Shown here: positions 12,521 to 37,979 of the stretch, piece after piece
How the letters are laid out: each line of letters starts with the position of its first letter
How positions within the stretch are numbered: the stretch's first letter is position 1
Notes under the pieces: model-generated
Told to the model about the DNA's origin: nothing
Database searches by the model: none
What the model saw: only the letters and a program-made list of their open reading frames with translations
Program-made: the position numbers and the translations under genes
NCBI GenBank assembly: GCA_035480415.1
Contig: DATIHT010000093.1
Span: 1 to 48,598, forward strand
Length of the DNA stretch: 48,598 bases
Direction: 5' to 3'
DNA from: Candidatus Saccharimonadales bacterium
GTDB taxonomy: Bacteria > Patescibacteriota > Microgenomatia > Curtissbacterales > GWA2-41-24

Positions 12521-14785
12521 ATGCCACAGAACGTAGTTTGGTTTAAAGATGTAGATAAAAACGACATAGATTTAGTCGGCGGCAAGGGCGCAAATTTAGG
12601 AGAACTCACCAAAATCGGCGCACCGGTACCAAACGGTTTTATTGTTACCTCACAAGCATACTTCGACTCTGTTAAAAATTCGGGAGCACTGGACAGAATT
12701 AAGGGCATATTGTATGGATTAAATACAAACGATCCTGTTGACCTTCAAAGAAAAGCCCAGGCATGCCAGAAAGAAATAAAAAACATAGAACTACCAAAAA
12801 GTCTGGAAAATGAAATCGAATCGCACTACAAAAAACTCGGCAACGGCAAACAGATACTGGTTGCCGTCCGTTCTTCTGCAACAGCAGAAGACTTACCAAA
12901 CGCTTCTTTTGCAGGCCAACAAAAAACTTTTTTAAATGTAAAAGGTAAAGAAGAATTAAAGCGCGCAATTTTAGACGCCTGGGCTTCGCTATTTGAAGCA
13001 AGAGCAATTTTTTACAGGCAGGATCAAAAATTCGACCATTTTAAAGTAGGTATCGCAATACCGGTACAAATTATGGTGCAATCCCAAACTTCCGGCGTAA
13101 TGTTTACAGTAGACCCAATTACCGGCAATAAAAACACAGCGGTAATAGAAGCAATTTGGGGTCTTGGAGAATTGATAGTTGGCGGACAGGCAACACCCGA
13201 CCATTTTGAAGTTGAAAAACAAAACTTTACAATCAGTGTCAAAAGCATTGCCAAACAGGAAAAACAGCTGGTAAAGGTGGAAAAAGGCAACAAACTTGTA
13301 ACTATTGCAAAGGCTCACCAGAAATCCCAAAAACTTCCGGATGCAAAAGTATTAGAACTTGCCAAAATTGGCAAAATGCTCGAAAATCATTATTTTTCTC
13401 CTCAGGATATTGAATGGGCATACACAAACGGCAAAATCTATCTGGTACAAACAAGGCCTATCACCACACTCGGCAAAAAGAAAAAGGAGGAAGAGACAAA
13501 AATGCCAGAAAATCAAATTAAAAATGTAATCCTGGAAGGTGCACCTGCGTCTCCGGCAATTGCAACAGGAAAAGTTGTTATTATTCATTCGCCAAAAGAA
13601 CTTAACAAAATCAAACAAGGCGATGTTTTGGTAACAGAGGTTACAAATCCGGATTTTGTACCTGCAATGAGAAGAGCAGTTGCCATTGTGACAGACAAAG
13701 GCGGCAGGACTTCTCATGCTGCCATTGTTTCCAGAGAGCTTGGCATTGCATGTGTTGTGGGCACGCAGGATGCTACCAAAAAACTTAAAGACGGGCAGAT
13801 AGTCACAGTAGATGGTGCCAAAGGTTTAATTTACAAAGGCAGTATTCAAACTCCAGGCAAAAACCTTAATGCCCAGCTTACTGCCAGTAAACAGGCAACA
13901 AACCATAATACGGCAACTAAGCTTTACGTTAATTTGGCAGAAGTTGAAAAAGCAGTGGAAATTGCCGCCAAAAATGTGGACGGCGTCGGGCTTTTGCGTG
14001 CAGAATTTATGCTGGCAGCAATCGGCACCCACCCAAAAAAATTTATAAAAGACAAAAAAGAGGATGAATTTGTAAATATTCTATCTTCAAAACTTTCTAC
14101 CTTTGGCAAAGCCTTTGGTAAACGCCCGGTTATCTACAGAGCGAGCGATTTAAAATCCAGCGAATACAGACACCTTAAAGGCGGCGAAGCTTTTGAGCCC
14201 AATGAGACTAACCCCATGCTTGGCTACCGCGGTGCCTTCAGATATTTAAAAGATCCCGATACTTTTAAGTTGGAACTAAGAGCCTTAAAACTTGCCCGTC
14301 AAAACCATAAAAACCTAAGGCTTATGATTCCGTTTGTAAGAAACCCCCAGGAGCTTATTGCCGTTAAAAGCATGGTGGAAGAACAAGGTCTATTCCAGGA
14401 CAAATCTTTTGAGCTTCTCATGATGGCCGAACTTCCCACAAATGTCTTCAGGCTTCAGGATTTCATAGACGTGGGTATAGACGGCATATCAATTGGCTCC
14501 AACGATCTTACGATGCTTATTTTGGGGACAGACAGAGACAATGAAGAAGTAGCAAGCGAATTCAACGAAATGGACCCTGCGGTTTTGTCTGCTTACGAGA
14601 AAATAATTAAAACTTGTGTCCAAAACAAACTTGATTGTTCTATTTGCGGTCAGGCCCCTTCCTTTTTTCCGGAATTGACCGAAAAATTAGTAAAATGGGG
14701 CATTACCTCAATTTCGGTAAACCCAGATAAAATAGACCAAACCCGCCAAATCATTTACGAAGCCGAGAAAAAACTTGTATTATGA
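12521..14785 (+). CDS. ppsA: phosphoenolpyruvate synthase (pyruvate, water dikinase)
   Basis: N-terminal ATP-grasp motif VGGKGANLGEL, phosphohistidine swivel GGRTSHAAIVSRELGIACVVG, and a C-terminal PEP-utilising TIM domain. 754 aa. Confidence 0.85.
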   Translation: MPQNVVWFKDVDKNDIDLVGGKGANLGELTKIGAPVPNGFIVTSQAYFDSVKNSGALDRIKGILYGLNTNDPVDLQRKAQACQKEIKNIELPKSLENEIESHYKKLGNGKQILVAVRSSATAEDLPNASFAGQQKTFLNVKGKEELKRAILDAWASLFEARAIFYRQDQKFDHFKVGIAIPVQIMVQSQTSGVMFTVDPITGNKNTAVIEAIWGLGELIVGGQATPDHFEVEKQNFTISVKSIAKQEKQLVKVEKGNKLVTIAKAHQKSQKLPDAKVLELAKIGKMLENHYFSPQDIEWAYTNGKIYLVQTRPITTLGKKKKEEETKMPENQIKNVILEGAPASPAIATGKVVIIHSPKELNKIKQGDVLVTEVTNPDFVPAMRRAVAIVTDKGGRTSHAAIVSRELGIACVVGTQDATKKLKDGQIVTVDGAKGLIYKGSIQTPGKNLNAQLTASKQATNHNTATKLYVNLAEVEKAVEIAAKNVDGVGLLRAEFMLAAIGTHPKKFIKDKKEDEFVNILSSKLSTFGKAFGKRPVIYRASDLKSSEYRHLKGGEAFEPNETNPMLGYRGAFRYLKDPDTFKLELRALKLARQNHKNLRLMIPFVRNPQELIAVKSMVEEQGLFQDKSFELLMMAELPTNVFRLQDFIDVGIDGISIGSNDLTMLILGTDRDNEEVASEFNEMDPAVLSAYEKIIKTCVQNKLDCSICGQAPSFFPELTEKLVKWGITSISVNPDKIDQTRQIIYEAEKKLVL

Positions 14786-19234: not shown

Positions 19235-19281
19235 AAAAAAGAGATGCGACCTTTACATCATATGTTTGGTCGTTCCTCGTT
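19235..19281 (-). promoter_or_regulatory. AA/CA-loop hairpin, copy C (followed by a T-run on the minus strand)
   Basis: Minus strand reads CGAGG-AA-CGACC-(16-nt loop)-GGTCG-CA-TCTC-TTTTTT, ending at the rsmI -10 box. Confidence 0.55.
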
Positions 19282-19293
19282 TTTGTCCAACAG

Positions 19294-19343
19294 AAATCAA
19301 GGAACGTCCTCTCCGATACAATCCCGAGGACGCACCTTGATTT
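19294..19343 (+). promoter_or_regulatory. AA/CA-loop hairpin, copy D
   Basis: AAATCAAGG-AA-CGTCCTC-(14-nt loop)-GAGGACG-CA-CCTTGATTT. Upstream of the Nramp-like gene. Confidence 0.55.
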
Positions 19344-19386
19344 CTTGCATCTTGAGTAAATTTTTGTCAAAGTAGTTAAAGTGGCA

Positions 19387-25277: not shown

Positions 25278-25358
25278 TTGAACGACGACGACAAAAAAGT
25301 TGAATCTACTGACGATAAGCCAGCAGAAGCAGCAAAAACAGAAGAAGCTGCAAAGTAA
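25278..25358 (+). CDS. candidate 26-aa acidic peptide
   Basis: TTG lies 7 nt after AAGGAGGTG (25262-25270). Reads LNDDDKKVESTDDKPAEAAKTEEAAK. Not in the ORF track (too short). Composition echoes the 1533-1724 product. Confidence 0.3.
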   Translation: MNDDDKKVESTDDKPAEAAKTEEAAK

Positions 25359-25476
25359 CTTCTAGGTAATTAGATAATGGCGGGGGCTTTAAATCAAAAA
25401 TTTCCCGCCTCTAGTTATCCTTTGATATAATTCATCCATAAACTACCCAAAACCACCATCCAAACAATCTATATTT

Positions 25477-25890
25477 TTGTACACCGCATTCACATTGCTT
25501 GCGGTATTAGCATTGATTATTCTCGCAAAAATACTTAATAGACAGCCTCTATATAATTGGTGGACGTATACAAGCTTAACGTGGGCACCGATTCCTGTAA
25601 GCTTTGCCCAAGAGCTAATATTTAGGGCATTTTTACAAACAAAACTTCAAAAGCATCTTCGCCCACTGTTTGCTATTTTAATAAGTTCCGTCCTTTTTGC
25701 TTCAATTCACCTTCTGTGGAAAGACCCGCTAATCATATTTTTAGCCTTAATTGGTGGTCTTTGCTGGGGATATTTATGGTACAAACACCCAAATCTACTC
25801 CTAATTACCATTTCTCATTCAGTTATAAATTTCGCCATTATTTTCCTCGGTTTTTTCCCTTGGACAATCACAGACATAATTAAGTTTTAG
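25477..25890 (+). CDS. CPBP-family intramembrane protease (short form)
   Basis: QELIFRAF (ExxxR), FASIHL (FxxxH) and HSVINF (HxxxN) motifs in successive TM helices. TTG start. TGaTATAAT at 25423-25431 lies upstream. Confidence 0.65.
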   Translation: MYTAFTLLAVLALIILAKILNRQPLYNWWTYTSLTWAPIPVSFAQELIFRAFLQTKLQKHLRPLFAILISSVLFASIHLLWKDPLIIFLALIGGLCWGYLWYKHPNLLLITISHSVINFAIIFLGFFPWTITDIIKF

Positions 25891-25916
25891 CTAAACGGCC
25901 TATAATTCATTGTTTG

Positions 25917-25925
25917 TGCTATAAT
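25917..25925 (+). promoter_or_regulatory. extended -10 TGcTATAAT, 8 nt from ATG 25934
   Basis: Read directly. Confidence 0.5.
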
Positions 25926-25933
25926 TCTAGCCT

Positions 25934-26545
25934 ATGTCACGAATAGAAAGACACCAAGAACCAGTCACTTTTAGACCAGCGACAACCGAAGACGCGGTTT
26001 TAATAACCTCAATCGACAAAACCAATAACCAAATTGAATTAAAAGCTGTCGAAGTTTCGATAGAAGGGGAAGCAAGATATTCACCTGGAAGACTAGAAGA
26101 TGGATTGGATCGAAGAATGTACACTTATCTTGGGCGTCATGAAAACGAGGCCGAAAACTTAAATTACATTGTTCAAGATGGAGAACAAGCTGTAGGTTAC
26201 ATTCTTGCATATAGAGAACAAAAACCAGATGAAGAAGTAGTCCGTTTCGTAGATATGTCAGCAAAACCCCGTGCACGTTCACTAAGAGTAGCAAGGGCCA
26301 TGTTTCTAAAACTTGCAGAAATTCAACTAGGAGCAAACTTACCACTAGAAGGCTACGTCAGGATTAGGCCAATGTATAGATATCTTTTACAGAACCCAGT
26401 TAAAAGATGGATTTCTGATCATGGCTATGAAGTTGTAAAATTAGATGCACCGGCGGTACTGATTGATGAAAGTGTTGCCATTAAAGTTCGTCTTGAGAAT
26501 AAACTACCGTATCAGCCATCTTTACTTGCACATCAAATTGCTTAA
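25934..26545 (+). CDS. hypothetical protein, weakly GNAT-like
   Basis: The pattern QAVGYILAY...VRFVDMS...ARAMFLKLAE loosely resembles the acetyltransferase beta4-alpha3 region. There is no clear Q/RxxGxG/A motif. Confidence 0.35.
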   Translation: MSRIERHQEPVTFRPATTEDAVLITSIDKTNNQIELKAVEVSIEGEARYSPGRLEDGLDRRMYTYLGRHENEAENLNYIVQDGEQAVGYILAYREQKPDEEVVRFVDMSAKPRARSLRVARAMFLKLAEIQLGANLPLEGYVRIRPMYRYLLQNPVKRWISDHGYEVVKLDAPAVLIDESVAIKVRLENKLPYQPSLLAHQIA

Positions 26546-31003: not shown

Positions 31004-31258
31004 ATGCCAAAGGTTACACTTTACACAACCAAAACTTGTCCTTTTTGTCTTATGCAAAAAGATTATTTTGCGGACAAGGGCGTAGAGTACACAGAAATTT
31101 TGGTAGACGAACACCCTGACGAAGCAATGAAAATGATCGAAATTTCCGGCCAAATGGGTGTACCTTTTACGGTAATAGATAAGGATAATGGTGAACGAGT
31201 AACTATATTAGGTTTCGACAAAAGCAGACTTCAGTCAGAACTAGGTCTCCCCAACTAA
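31004..31258 (+). CDS. glutaredoxin-like protein (NrdH/YruB type)
   Basis: VTLYTTKTCPFC CxxC motif and GVPFTVI. ATG 31004 is preferred (TATACT 30992-30997 lies 6 nt upstream); track start is TTG 30971. Confidence 0.75.
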   Translation: MPKVTLYTTKTCPFCLMQKDYFADKGVEYTEILVDEHPDEAMKMIEISGQMGVPFTVIDKDNGERVTILGFDKSRLQSELGLPN

Positions 31259-31306
31259 AAACAAGGAACGACCAAACATATGATATTAAGGTCGCACCTT
31301 GTTTTT
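31257..31306 (+). terminator. AA/CA-loop hairpin, copy A, with flanking A-run and T-run
   Basis: AAAAACAAGG-AA-CGACC-(16-nt loop)-GGTCG-CA-CCTTGTTTTT. Immediately after the glutaredoxin-like stop. Confidence 0.6.
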
Positions 31307-31320
31307 TTACATTTACTACT

Positions 31321-31350
31321 TGATACCTGATACATGATACTTGATACACT
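31321..31350 (+). repeat. TGATAC x4 tandem array, 7-nt period; the last unit forms extended -10 TGaTACACT
   Basis: Units at 31321, 31328, 31335 and 31342. ATG 31357 is 6 nt after the last unit. Confidence 0.85.
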
Positions 31351-37855: not shown

Positions 37856-37890
37856 GCCTACCTCAATAGTACTACGTCCGAGCCTAAGAA

Positions 37891-37934
37891 ATCGAGGAAC
37901 GACCAAACGCTCCGCGTCAAGGTCGCACCTCGAT
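37891..37934 (+). promoter_or_regulatory. AA/CA-loop hairpin, copy B
   Basis: ATCGAGG-AA-CGACC-(16-nt loop)-GGTCG-CA-CCTCGAT. The outer stem differs from copy A by compensatory changes. Confidence 0.55.
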
Positions 37935-37943
37935 CTTAGCTCT

Positions 37944-37979
37944 TGATACCTTTGATACTTTTGATACTTTTGGTACCCT
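37944..37979 (+). repeat. TGATAC x3 plus TGGTAC tandem array, 9-nt period; the last unit TGgTACCCT is 6 nt from the ATG
   Basis: Units at 37944, 37953, 37962 and 37971. ATG at 37986. Confidence 0.85.

What the first reader, a model, noticed from the sequence alone, without database searches (positions are those of the whole stretch)
19235..19343. Back-to-back copies of a hairpin motif with an invariant AA/CA internal loop and covarying stems
Four copies share the architecture outer stem ...AGG / AA / inner stem CG... loop ...CG / CA / CCT... outer stem. Copy C (minus strand, 19235-19281) reads CGAGG-AA-CGACC-16nt-GGTCG-CA-TCTC. Copy D (19294-19343) reads AAATCAAGG-AA-CGTCCTC-14nt-GAGGACG-CA-CCTTGATTT. 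Copy A (31257-31306) reads CAAGG-AA-CGACC-16nt-GGTCG-CA-CCTTG. Copy B (37891-37934) reads ATCGAGG-AA-CGACC-16nt-GGTCG-CA-CCTCGAT. The stems change by compensatory substitutions (CAAGG/CCTTG versus CGAGG/CCTCG; CGACC/GGTCG versus CGTCCTC/GAGGACG), while the asymmetric AA/CA loop is invariant. Every copy points toward, and lies just upstream of, the promoter of a gene (rsmI, the Nramp-like gene, the beta-CASP nuclease, rpe). C and D face outward in a divergent spacer. The motif could be a specialised insulator/terminator that shields leaderless promoters from read-through. The conserved internal loop suggests a specific protein or RNA-processing recognition site.
Basis: partly seen in the sequence, partly recalled or inferred. 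Interest (0 to 1): 0.6.

Follow-up and report, generated by a model that had tools for sequence, protein, structure and literature searches.

The report
REP-like hairpin repeats, CPR genome
The four hairpins are real, but they belong to about 38 copies of a small hairpin-forming DNA repeat scattered through this ultra-small (Curtissbacteria/CPR) genome, some sitting in frame inside essential genes. They look like a CPR version of the known REP/REPIN "selfish hairpin" repeats, not a promoter insulator.

Summary
All four copies are real: the pattern matches 4 times and 0 times in shuffles. They are not a local promoter device. The 0.89-Mb genome holds 30 such hairpins, plus 8 with the same two strands in the opposite order and about 5 fully paired variants.

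Copies lie in every kind of spacer and in both orientations. They show no bias to GC skew (18:18) or local gene strand (20:18). Only 8 of 30 are followed by a T-run. Several sit in frame inside real genes: transketolase, TatD, a pol III delta'-like gene and a NUDIX–polyprenyl synthase ORF here, SufS and PriA in relatives. The same-genus genome lacks them at the orthologous sites.

The types with long paired stems are inverted doublets of two mini-hairpins, RAGG-AACGW-CCTY and RAGG-WCGCA-CCTY. The "AA/CA loop" is where the two half-site loops differ. Mini-hairpins of this NAGG-N5-CCTN shape bracket RAYT-like Y1 transposase genes in this genome and 26 loci of other CPR genomes, but none carries the AACGW/WCGCA loops.

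Verdict: a REPIN/BIME-like repeat that also tolerates in-frame insertion, as Rickettsia palindromic elements do. That is a new variant of a known kind. This scan has already reported the same kind on at least 8 other Patescibacteria genomes. The terminator/insulator reading is not supported as a family property.

The parts
19235..19284 (-). Copy C. CGACC-type (T1) hairpin: AAAAACGAGG-AA-CGACC-A-AACAT-ATG-ATGTA-AA-GGTCG-CA-TCTCTTTTTT. It abuts the start of the rsmI-like methylase ORF.
   Evidence: (58.5 bits)
19293..19344 (+). Copy D. CGTCCTC-type (T2) hairpin, an inverted doublet of two mini-hairpin half sites. It lies 36 nt upstream of the Nramp gene start. Together with copy C it forms an abutting inverted T1/T2 pair (BIME-like); similar pairs occur at C53:10203-10301 and C89:4598-4699.
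   Evidence: (62.6 bits)
19299..19311 (+). Half site A of copy D: AAGG-AACGT-CCTC. This is the left mini-hairpin unit; its loop starts with the 'AA' of the internal loop.
   Evidence: architecture
19326..19338 (+). Half site B of copy D: GAGG-ACGCA-CCTT. This is the right mini-hairpin unit; its loop ends with the 'CA' of the internal loop.
   Evidence: picked up as a 5-bp stem, 5-nt loop
31257..31306 (+). Copy A. T1 hairpin with A5/T7 flanks. It starts 2 nt before the end of the glutaredoxin stop codon (gene 31004-31258) and ends 50 nt before the beta-CASP gene start.
   Evidence: (66.6 bits). The same-genus spacer is 66 nt against 126 nt here and has no hairpin.
37888..37937 (+). Copy B. T1 hairpin with apical helix ACGC/GCGT. 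It lies in the divergent spacer between a glycerate-kinase-like gene (-) and rpe (+).
   Evidence: (61.6 bits)

Best explanation
The hairpins are members of a lineage-amplified family of short non-coding palindromic repeats of the REP/REPIN kind. The basic unit is a 13-nt mini-hairpin, NAGG-N5-CCTN. In CPR genomes this unit brackets genes for RAYT-like HUH Y1 (IS200-type) transposases. The element in the finding is an inverted doublet of two such units: A = RAGG-AACGW-CCTY and B = RAGG-WCGCA-CCTY. Folded on one strand, the doublet gives a long hairpin, and the 'invariant AA/CA internal loop' is simply the two positions where loop A and the complement of loop B differ. Shown here: the copy number, the two doublet orders (A-B and B-A), the variable but hairpin-forming spacers, absence from orthologous sites of the nearest relative, in-frame residence in essential genes, the presence of a RAYT-like gene with intact HUH and Tyr motifs, and the shared mini-hairpin architecture. 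Inferred: that the elements spread as single-stranded DNA hairpins through a Y1 transposase. Also inferred: that the conserved mismatch (G.T plus T.T on the better-folding complementary strand) marks strand and left/right end for that enzyme. Copies survive only where harmless, that is in spacers, or in frame in surface loops or linkers of proteins. A few copies with A/T-run flanks (A and C in the window) may secondarily act as attenuators.
For: Copy number: 30 canonical copies by covariance model and 8 permuted copies, with 0 expected by chance. Distribution: 0 copies in the same-genus genome, 2 in one other genus of 32 family genomes, 0 of 400 in the class sample, and chance-level singletons in the phylum sample. 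Empty orthologous sites in the same-genus genome: the C/D spacer is about 25 nt there against 145 nt here, and the A spacer 66 against 126 nt. In-frame copies occur in transketolase, TatD, a pol III delta'-like gene and a NUDIX-polyprenyl synthase ORF, in SufS of G008 and in PriA on metagenome contigs. The TatD insert models as a low-confidence coil (residues 164-173, pLDDT below 50) between a helix and a strand of an otherwise confident barrel (mean pLDDT 85). The genome has one Y1_Tnp gene (44.8 bits); its best NCBIfam hit is the REP-associated tyrosine transposase model; HUH and RYIHxNP are invariant in 14 homologues. That gene and 26 homologous loci in family and distant CPR genomes are bracketed by inverted NAGG-N5-CCTN mini-hairpins. 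The closed variants are doublets of GAGGTCCGACCTC, the very unit that brackets the RAYT-like genes of G005, G015 and G041; in G018 it occurs as 5 inverted doublets. The two doublet orders and the unique but hairpin-forming spacers match published REPIN properties (PMC3337134). Orientation is random relative to GC skew and local gene strand. Stem mismatches are 13 A.C against 1 G.T on the drawn strand. The complement folds better in 30/30 copies with RNA parameters and 36/38 with DNA parameters. C-GAA-G triloops are the commonest apical loop on the complement.
Against: No RAYT-like gene was found flanked by the AACGW/WCGCA half sites. The genome's only Y1 gene is flanked by GAGG-ATCAA-CCTC, the G008 orthologue by AAGG-TCAGA-CCTT, and none of 12 further loci in AA/CA-bearing CPR genomes carries these loops. 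The T1 subtype and two permuted copies do not form proper mini-hairpins in their halves, so for them only the long hairpin is conserved. The Y1 protein scores below NCBI's equivalog cut-off (50.5 against 80) and matches solved Y1 transposases only weakly (E 0.012). The same mismatch is conserved across distant CPR classes in both circular permutations, which would also fit a recognised structural motif with a cellular role.
Confidence: 0.7

Rival explanations
1. Insulator or terminator. The hairpins would be RNA-level factor-independent or factor-dependent terminators or attenuators that protect closely packed, leaderless promoters from read-through.
For: All four window copies lie just upstream of a start codon, and copies A and C have A-run/T-run flanks like bidirectional terminators. 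Many copies abut stop codons. REP doublets with A/T flanks are thought to be co-opted for attenuation in Pseudomonas (PMC3337134).
Against: A T-run of 4 or more follows only 8/30 copies, on either strand. Copies sit in frame inside transketolase, TatD and other genes, where termination would be lethal. Of 23 intergenic copies, 7 point away from the next gene, and there is no strand bias overall. The nearest relative has the same gene pairs without hairpins. The more stable fold is on the other strand.
Confidence: 0.12
2. Protein-binding structured RNA (or ssDNA) motif with a cellular function. The two-strand module 5'-GG-AA-CG / 5'-CG-CA-CC would be the binding site of a conserved CPR protein, and the repeats a dispersed regulon or processing signal.
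For: The 2x2 mismatch is invariant in 32 or more copies, with no intermediates toward the closed form. It occurs in both circular permutations, as internal-loop protein sites do. It is conserved in at least 10 genomes of other CPR classes.
Against: No Rfam family matches. Neighbouring genes are functionally unrelated. Orientation relative to transcription is random and some copies are inside CDS. Copy number differs from 0 to 38 between close relatives, which is not how a regulon behaves. The wobble pattern points to the strand that is mostly not the mRNA strand.
Confidence: 0.08
3. Mobile or copy-spreading hairpin element, but not driven by a RAYT-like enzyme. It would be an RPE/MITE-like element moved by another (possibly lost or phage-borne) enzyme, or spread and homogenised by recombination, template switching or arm-to-arm copying at palindromes.
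For: The cognate RAYT with matching flanks was not found in 26 loci examined. Outer arms are copy-specific yet almost perfectly complementary and 6-15 bp long, which suggests arm copying rather than selection, as an earlier scan note on another genome also proposed. In-frame residence is like RPEs, whose mobilising enzyme is unknown.
Against: The half sites have exactly the NAGG-N5-CCTN design that brackets every RAYT-like gene examined. The closed sister family is built from a unit that does bracket RAYT-like genes in relatives. No target-site duplication or terminal inverted repeats of a DDE-type MITE are visible.
Confidence: 0.2

Closest known systems
REP / REPIN / BIME repeats with RAYT (REP-associated tyrosine transposase), e.g. 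Pseudomonas fluorescens SBW25 REPINs and E. coli REP-TnpA(REP)
   Same: The unit is a short imperfect palindrome. Two inverted units plus a spacer fold into a long hairpin. Both doublet configurations exist. Spacers are unique per copy yet hairpin-forming. There are tens of copies in one lineage and few or none in close relatives. A Y1 HUH transposase-like gene is bracketed by the units. Mixed-type abutting pairs resemble BIMEs.
   Different: The units are much smaller (4-bp stem, 5-nt loop) and there is no conserved GTAG-like flank. The two half sites of the amplified family differ at two loop positions, giving the invariant AA/CA mismatch. The RAYT-like gene of this genome is bracketed by a different loop variant. 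The protein is below the RAYT equivalog cut-off. Copies are tolerated in frame inside essential genes, so they are not strictly 'extragenic'. The host is a CPR bacterium, and I found no paper linking RAYT or REPIN with that group.
Rickettsia palindromic elements (RPE)
   Same: Both are selfish-looking palindromic repeats found between genes and in frame inside conserved protein genes of a small, reduced genome. They add a short peptide at a tolerated surface position.
   Different: RPEs are 100-150 bp, have no known associated transposase and are confined to Rickettsia. These elements are about 50 nt, built from RAGG-N5-CCTY units, and share their design with RAYT-flanking hairpins. Sequence similarity to RPEs was not tested.
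Subterminal imperfect hairpins of IS200/IS605-family elements (IS608, ISDra2)
   Same: Hairpins with a conserved irregularity are recognised on one DNA strand by a Y1 HUH transposase, and no target duplication is made. The nearest solved relatives of the CPR protein profile are ISDra2 TnpA chains.
   Different: The elements here are gene-less and far smaller than an IS. Left and right hairpins are adjacent rather than flanking a transposase gene. Guide and cleavage sequences are unknown.

Membership tests
REP/REPIN-RAYT | The unit is a short imperfect palindrome (REP) | tested here: met
   T2, T3 and permuted copies consist of GAGG-AACGW-CCTC and GAGG-WCGCA-CCTC mini-hairpins. T1 halves are degenerate.
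REP/REPIN-RAYT | Two REPs in inverted orientation plus a spacer fold into one hairpin (REPIN); both configurations can occur | tested here: met
   30 A-B and 8 B-A doublets, all folding as one hairpin. Compare the TT-AA/AA-TT configurations in PMC3337134.
REP/REPIN-RAYT | Spacer differs between copies but keeps a hairpin | tested here: met
   The apical helix of T1 covaries: UA:10/CG:5, AU:14/GC:1, AU:15/UA:1.
REP/REPIN-RAYT | Strong over-representation within one genome, mostly extragenic | tested here: met
   About 38 copies against 0 expected. About 32 are intergenic and 5-6 lie in CDS.
REP/REPIN-RAYT | A RAYT (Y1 HUH transposase-like) gene is present and bracketed by REPs | tested here: met
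   C28:1805-2449(-) matches PF01797 at 44.8 bits. HUH and Tyr motifs are conserved. It is bracketed by four GAGG-ATCAA-CCTC units.
REP/REPIN-RAYT | The REPs bracketing the RAYT are the same as the amplified family | tested here: not met
   The flanks carry loop ATCAA, not AACGW/WCGCA. The same holds in G008 and in 12 Y1 loci of five other AA/CA-bearing CPR genomes. The assembly is only 84% complete, so a second RAYT could be missing.
REP/REPIN-RAYT | The protein reaches the curated RAYT model (NF047646) | tested here: not met
   50.5 bits against a cut-off of 80. It is nevertheless the best and only NCBIfam hit.
REP/REPIN-RAYT | Conserved tetranucleotide (GTAG type) next to the hairpin foot | tested here: not met
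   Beyond YRAGG/CCTYR the flanks vary between copies.
REP/REPIN-RAYT | Observed excision or transposition | not testable with these tools
Only indirect evidence exists, namely empty orthologous sites.
Rickettsia palindromic elements (RPE) | Palindromic repeat inserted in frame in conserved ORFs | tested here: met
   Transketolase, TatD, a pol III delta'-like gene, SufS and PriA. In TatD it forms a surface coil.
Rickettsia palindromic elements (RPE) | Length of 100-150 bp and membership of RPE sequence families | tested here: not met
   The elements are 46-53 nt. Sequence comparison with RPEs was not run.
Intrinsic (rho-independent) terminator | G+C-rich hairpin directly followed by a U-tract, downstream of a gene in sense orientation | tested here: not met
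   A T-run of 4 or more occurs in 8/30 copies on each strand. Orientation is random. Some copies are inside CDS.
MITE (DDE-type) | Terminal inverted repeats with a flanking target-site duplication | tested here: not met
   No direct repeats flank the copies in the aligned flanks. This was inspection only.
Any curated RNA family (Rfam 15) | Match at the gathering score | tested here: not met
   The window and 12 outside loci gave only tRNAs and DUF805b elsewhere. The best sub-threshold hit at the hairpin scores 23.7 bits against a gathering score of 55.2.

The most novel reading that the evidence does not exclude
The two-strand module GG-AA-CG / CG-CA-CC (G.T plus T.T on the complementary strand) may be a specific recognition structure in its own right. 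It is invariant in about 32 copies here, occurs in both circular permutations, and is conserved in Microgenomates, Paceibacterota, Saccharibacteria and other CPR classes. It could mark the left and right ends of a previously undescribed, CPR-wide class of minimal HUH-transposase substrates. Alternatively it could be the site of a structure-specific CPR protein, with copies co-opted by the host as peptide-adding inserts or gene-boundary hairpins. Either way the CPR would have a rich REP/RAYT biology of its own, operating inside coding sequence.
Probability: 0.25. Interest if true: 0.65.

Novelty: new variant of a known kind. Interest (0 to 1): 0.45.

Why it matters
CPR/Patescibacteria genomes are among the smallest and most gene-dense known, so a repeat family of about 38 copies that even lodges in frame in transketolase, TatD, SufS or PriA is unexpected baggage.

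The result extends REP/REPIN-RAYT biology, so far described mainly in Proteobacteria, to ultra-small bacteria. It also shows a minimal 13-nt unit for these repeats.

It offers a simple in vitro system for asking how a Y1 enzyme tells strand and end: one small Y1 protein, 13-nt hairpins and a defined 2-nt mismatch.

For annotation it is a practical warning. These hairpins mimic regulatory RNAs and terminators and add about 17-residue loops to conserved proteins.

It is not a first sighting within this scan. Similar families were reported on at least eight other Patescibacteria genomes.

Tried and rejected
- **Rfam.** The gathering search of the window and of 12 outside loci, and a permissive search at the hairpins, found nothing relevant.
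- **Known internal-loop motifs.** I compared the loop by eye with K-turn, loop E/sarcin-ricin, the SRP domain IV loop and the S8 site. There is no resemblance. This rests on memory only and was not a tool test.
- **DNA uptake sequence pairs.** Rejected: single half sites are not enriched beyond the doublets (39 left halves, of which 26 are in elements, against about 27 expected by chance).
- **A cognate RAYT with AACGW/WCGCA flanks.** Not found in this genome, in G008, in 12 family loci or in 12 loci of five distant CPR genomes.
- **PDB.** phmmer with the Y1 protein gave no hit. A profile of 14 homologues gave only a weak match to ISDra2 TnpA.
- **Replication-strand bias.** Testing through local GC skew and gene strand showed none.
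- **Sense-strand UUCG tetraloops as an RNA signal.** On inspection the loops are C-TTC-G triloops. Their complements are C-GAA-G triloops, known (from memory) as very stable in DNA.
- **Exact insertion boundaries.** Alignment with the same-genus genome could not define them, because the spacers are too diverged (about 70% identity).

Full report
**1. The observation**

The sequence at the four places is as described. The pattern AGGAACGNCC-N(8-24)-GGNCGCA matches exactly four times in the window and never in 100 dinucleotide-preserving shuffles. All four fold as outer stem / 2x2 mismatch (AA opposite CA) / inner stem / loop. The loop is symmetric, not asymmetric. Copy C has an imperfect outer stem.

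**2. Scale in the genome**

- The window is contig C93 of an 889-kb, 94-contig, 40% G+C assembly that is 84% complete. Earlier notes of this scan call it an uncultured Curtissbacteria (Microgenomates, CPR).
- A regular-expression search found 26 strict copies and 29 relaxed copies. A covariance model built from them finds 30 copies at E below 1e-5.
- There are three subtypes:
  - T1: GGAACGACC-A-AACAY-loop-RTGTT-AA-GGTCGCACC
  - T2: GGAACGTCCTC-TCCGATGCCAACCC-GAGGACGCACC
  - T3: GGAACGACCTCG-loop-CGAGGTCGCACC
- Eight further hairpins carry the same two strands in the other order: GGWCG-CA-CCTC-loop-GAGG-AA-CGWCC.
- About five copies are fully paired variants in which AA/CA is replaced by TC/GA. 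No intermediates exist.
- Covariation is real. Over 29 copies, 94.4% of cells pair, against 82% in shuffles and 25-46% with slid partners. Six pairs change on both sides, and no shuffle reaches the score. The T1 apical helix covaries too.

**3. Distribution**

- The covariance model and the pattern find no copy in the other genome of the same genus. They find two copies in one other genus (G008) and none in the other 30 genomes of the family.
- A sample of 400 genomes of the class has none. A sample of 400 of the phylum has four singletons, which is chance level.
- A scan of all species-representative genomes with the CGACC-type pattern gave mostly chance singletons. It also gave 14 convincing hairpins, AAGG-AA-CGACCTT...AAGGTCG-CA-CCTT, in at least 10 genomes of other CPR classes: Paceibacterota, Minisyncoccia, Nomurabacteria, Kaiserbacteria and Saccharibacteria. 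Each has 1-4 copies, next to dnaN, dnaK, dnaJ, ruvB, proS and similar genes.
- A metagenome scan found the G008-type element on five contigs.
- The motif is therefore old or mobile within the CPR, and it is strongly amplified only here.

**4. Context**

- Using ORF maps, the 30 canonical copies lie in tandem, convergent and divergent spacers. Of the 23 intergenic copies I could score, 16 point toward the next gene and 7 away. By my own count this is not significant (two-sided binomial p about 0.09).
- There is no bias relative to local GC skew (18:18) or to the local majority gene strand (20:18).
- A T-run of four or more follows 8/30 copies on the drawn strand and 8/30 on the complement. The A/T-run flanks of window copies A and C are therefore not a family feature.
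- Three abutting inverted T1/T2 pairs exist: window C/D, C53:10203-10301 and C89:4598-4699. They recall the mosaic REP clusters (BIMEs) of E. coli.

**5. Copies inside genes**

- The element is read through in frame in four ORFs of this genome:
  - transketolase (...GMRA[NIQGTSSPMPSGGRTSNP]RSLPKVYVLLGD...; the Pfam domain spans the insert)
  - TatD (...NLIE[QFRGTSSPMPTRGRTSKL]SGVFHSW...)
  - the linker of a NUDIX-polyprenyl synthase ORF
  - a pol III delta'-like gene, in antisense orientation
- It also supplies the C-terminal tail and stop codon of an acyltransferase ORF.
- Four TatD orthologues, including the same-genus one, lack about 10 residues at that point.
- An AlphaFold model of the TatD (mean pLDDT 85.3) puts the insert in a coil between helix 150-161 and strand 178-181. 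Residues 164-173 have pLDDT below 50, so it is a tolerated loop.
- In G008 one copy is in frame near the N-terminus of SufS. On metagenome contigs one is in frame in the 3'-DNA-binding domain of PriA.
- T2 and T3 cores have no stop codon in most or all six frames.

**6. Empty sites**

The same-genus genome is syntenic at all three window loci. Its rsmI-Nramp spacer is about 25 nt against 145 nt here. Its glutaredoxin-beta-CASP spacer is 66 against 126 nt. Neither contains a hairpin. Window gene identities were checked with Pfam.

**7. Link to Y1 transposases**

- The genome has one PF01797 (Y1_Tnp) gene, C28:1805-2449(-), scoring 44.8 bits. Its only NCBIfam hit is the REP-associated tyrosine transposase model, at 50.5 bits, below the cut-off of 80.
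- The gene is bracketed by four copies of the mini-hairpin CGAGG-ATCAA-CCTCG. That mini-hairpin has seven copies in the genome, two or three of them in frame in other genes.
- Homologues occur in 26 of 32 family genomes, often as several paralogues. They were not found in the same-genus genome, which also lacks the hairpins.
- HUH (NHFH) and the RYIHxNP tyrosine are invariant in 14 homologues. A profile of them reaches ISDra2 TnpA only weakly (E 0.012).
- In every locus with readable flanks the gene is bracketed by inverted mini-hairpins of the design NAGG-N5-CCTN, with a loop specific to each gene. Examples are TCCGA, TCAGA, ATTCT, TTGAA, CAAGA, CCTTG and TCGAA.
- GAGGTCCGACCTC brackets the genes of G005, G015 and G041. 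It occurs in 10 of 32 family genomes (0 in the reversed control) and forms five inverted doublets in G018. The 'closed' hairpins of this genome are exactly such doublets.
- The AA/CA hairpins of types T2, T3 and the permuted type have the same build: unit A (GAGG-AACGW-CCTC), a spacer, and unit B (GAGG-WCGCA-CCTC). The AA/CA 'internal loop' is where loop A and the complement of loop B disagree.
- These properties match what has been published for Pseudomonas REPINs: two inverted imperfect palindromes, two doublet configurations, and spacers that are unique but always hairpin-forming (PMC3337134).

**8. Which strand folds**

- Within the stems, single mismatches are 13 A.C/C.A against 1 G.T on the drawn strand. 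By my own count the two-sided binomial p is about 0.002, though the copies are not fully independent. On the complementary strand these mismatches are G.T wobbles.
- The complement is the more stable strand in 30/30 copies with RNA parameters (mean -27.3 against -22.0 kcal/mol). With DNA parameters it is more stable in 29/30 and 7/8 copies.
- The commonest apical loop on the complement is C-GAA-G (9 copies, plus GCGAAGC contexts). From my own knowledge this is an unusually stable DNA triloop.
- On that strand the 'loop' is a G.T wobble next to a T.T mismatch.
- That strand is the non-mRNA strand for most neighbouring genes, and orientation is otherwise random. The fold therefore looks selected at the DNA level rather than in mRNA. 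This is an inference.

**9. What is not shown**

- No Y1 gene bracketed by the AACGW/WCGCA units was found in this genome, in G008, or in 24 other loci.
- T1 halves are not proper mini-hairpins.
- The outer arms are copy-specific, 6-15 bp long and almost perfectly complementary. This points to arm-to-arm copying or to palindromic targets. I could not tell which.

**10. Comparison and novelty**

- Rfam has nothing like it.
- I found no paper that connects RAYT or REPIN with Patescibacteria/CPR. In-frame palindromic repeats are known from Rickettsia (papers retrieved).
- Within this scan the same kind of element (REP/RAYT-like hairpins in frame in Patescibacteria genes) has been reported on at least eight other genomes. 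None of those share this sequence.
- I therefore file it as a new variant of a known kind. It works like a REPIN/BIME and is tolerated like an RPE, but it fails two membership features of the classical REP-RAYT system: the RAYT is not bracketed by the same REP, and the protein is below the equivalog score.
A secondary attenuator role for the minority of copies with T-runs, including A and C, cannot be excluded.

Noticed in passing
window 31318-31350 and 37944-37975: Runs of the heptamer TTGATAC (variants CTGATAC, ATGATAC, TTGGTAC) fill the space between hairpins A and B and the next start codon. Short matches to these runs occur at several unrelated places in the same-genus genome.
   Followed up: no
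G000 contig C28:1750-2490 (own genome, outside the window): The only Y1 (RAYT-like) gene of the assembly is bracketed by four GAGG-ATCAA-CCTC mini-hairpins. The neighbouring membrane-protein ORFs read through them as '...TRINLV...'. Further copies lie in frame in a glycosyltransferase-like ORF (C54:3648) and a membrane protein (C64:3748-3778).
   Followed up: partly
L028 (G002:C7), TatD gene, codons aligned with the own insert: At exactly the site where this genome's TatD carries the hairpin, the G002 orthologue has a near-perfect 12-bp palindrome, TTTTTTGGTCGA|TCGACAAAAAAA. This resembles an outer stem (GGTCGA..TCGACC, as in copy C4:5779) without its core. It could be an excision footprint or a preferred target.
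   Followed up: no
L031-L035 (transketolase genes of G001, G005, G002, G008, G004): The transketolase loop that holds the insert here is variable in all relatives. G004 has about 50 extra residues there, and several proteins contain 'KYPISN'-type repeats further on. This loop seems to be a recurrent landing or expansion site.
   Followed up: no
G005:C22:4290-5007 and G015:C2:33569-34307: GAGGTCCGACCTC units lie on both sides of the RAYT-like genes and also twice inside each gene's coding region.
   Followed up: no
G000 contig C69:13173-14046 and 25325-26467: Six of the eight permuted (B-A) hairpins cluster in two short stretches, one in nearly every spacer between small genes. The three at 13173-14046 are antisense to the genes in the two spacers that follow the first of them.
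   Followed up: partly
G000 contig C85:4490-4560: A half element (..GGACGGACCTTG, the right arm of a closed variant) abuts the T1 copy at C85:4511. It looks like a decayed pair.
   Followed up: no
L092:2162-2196 and L075:3810-3844 (other CPR genomes): DUF805b RNA motifs (Rfam RF02914) lie within a few kb of the AA/CA hairpins in two Paceibacterota-type genomes. This is probably coincidental.
   Followed up: no
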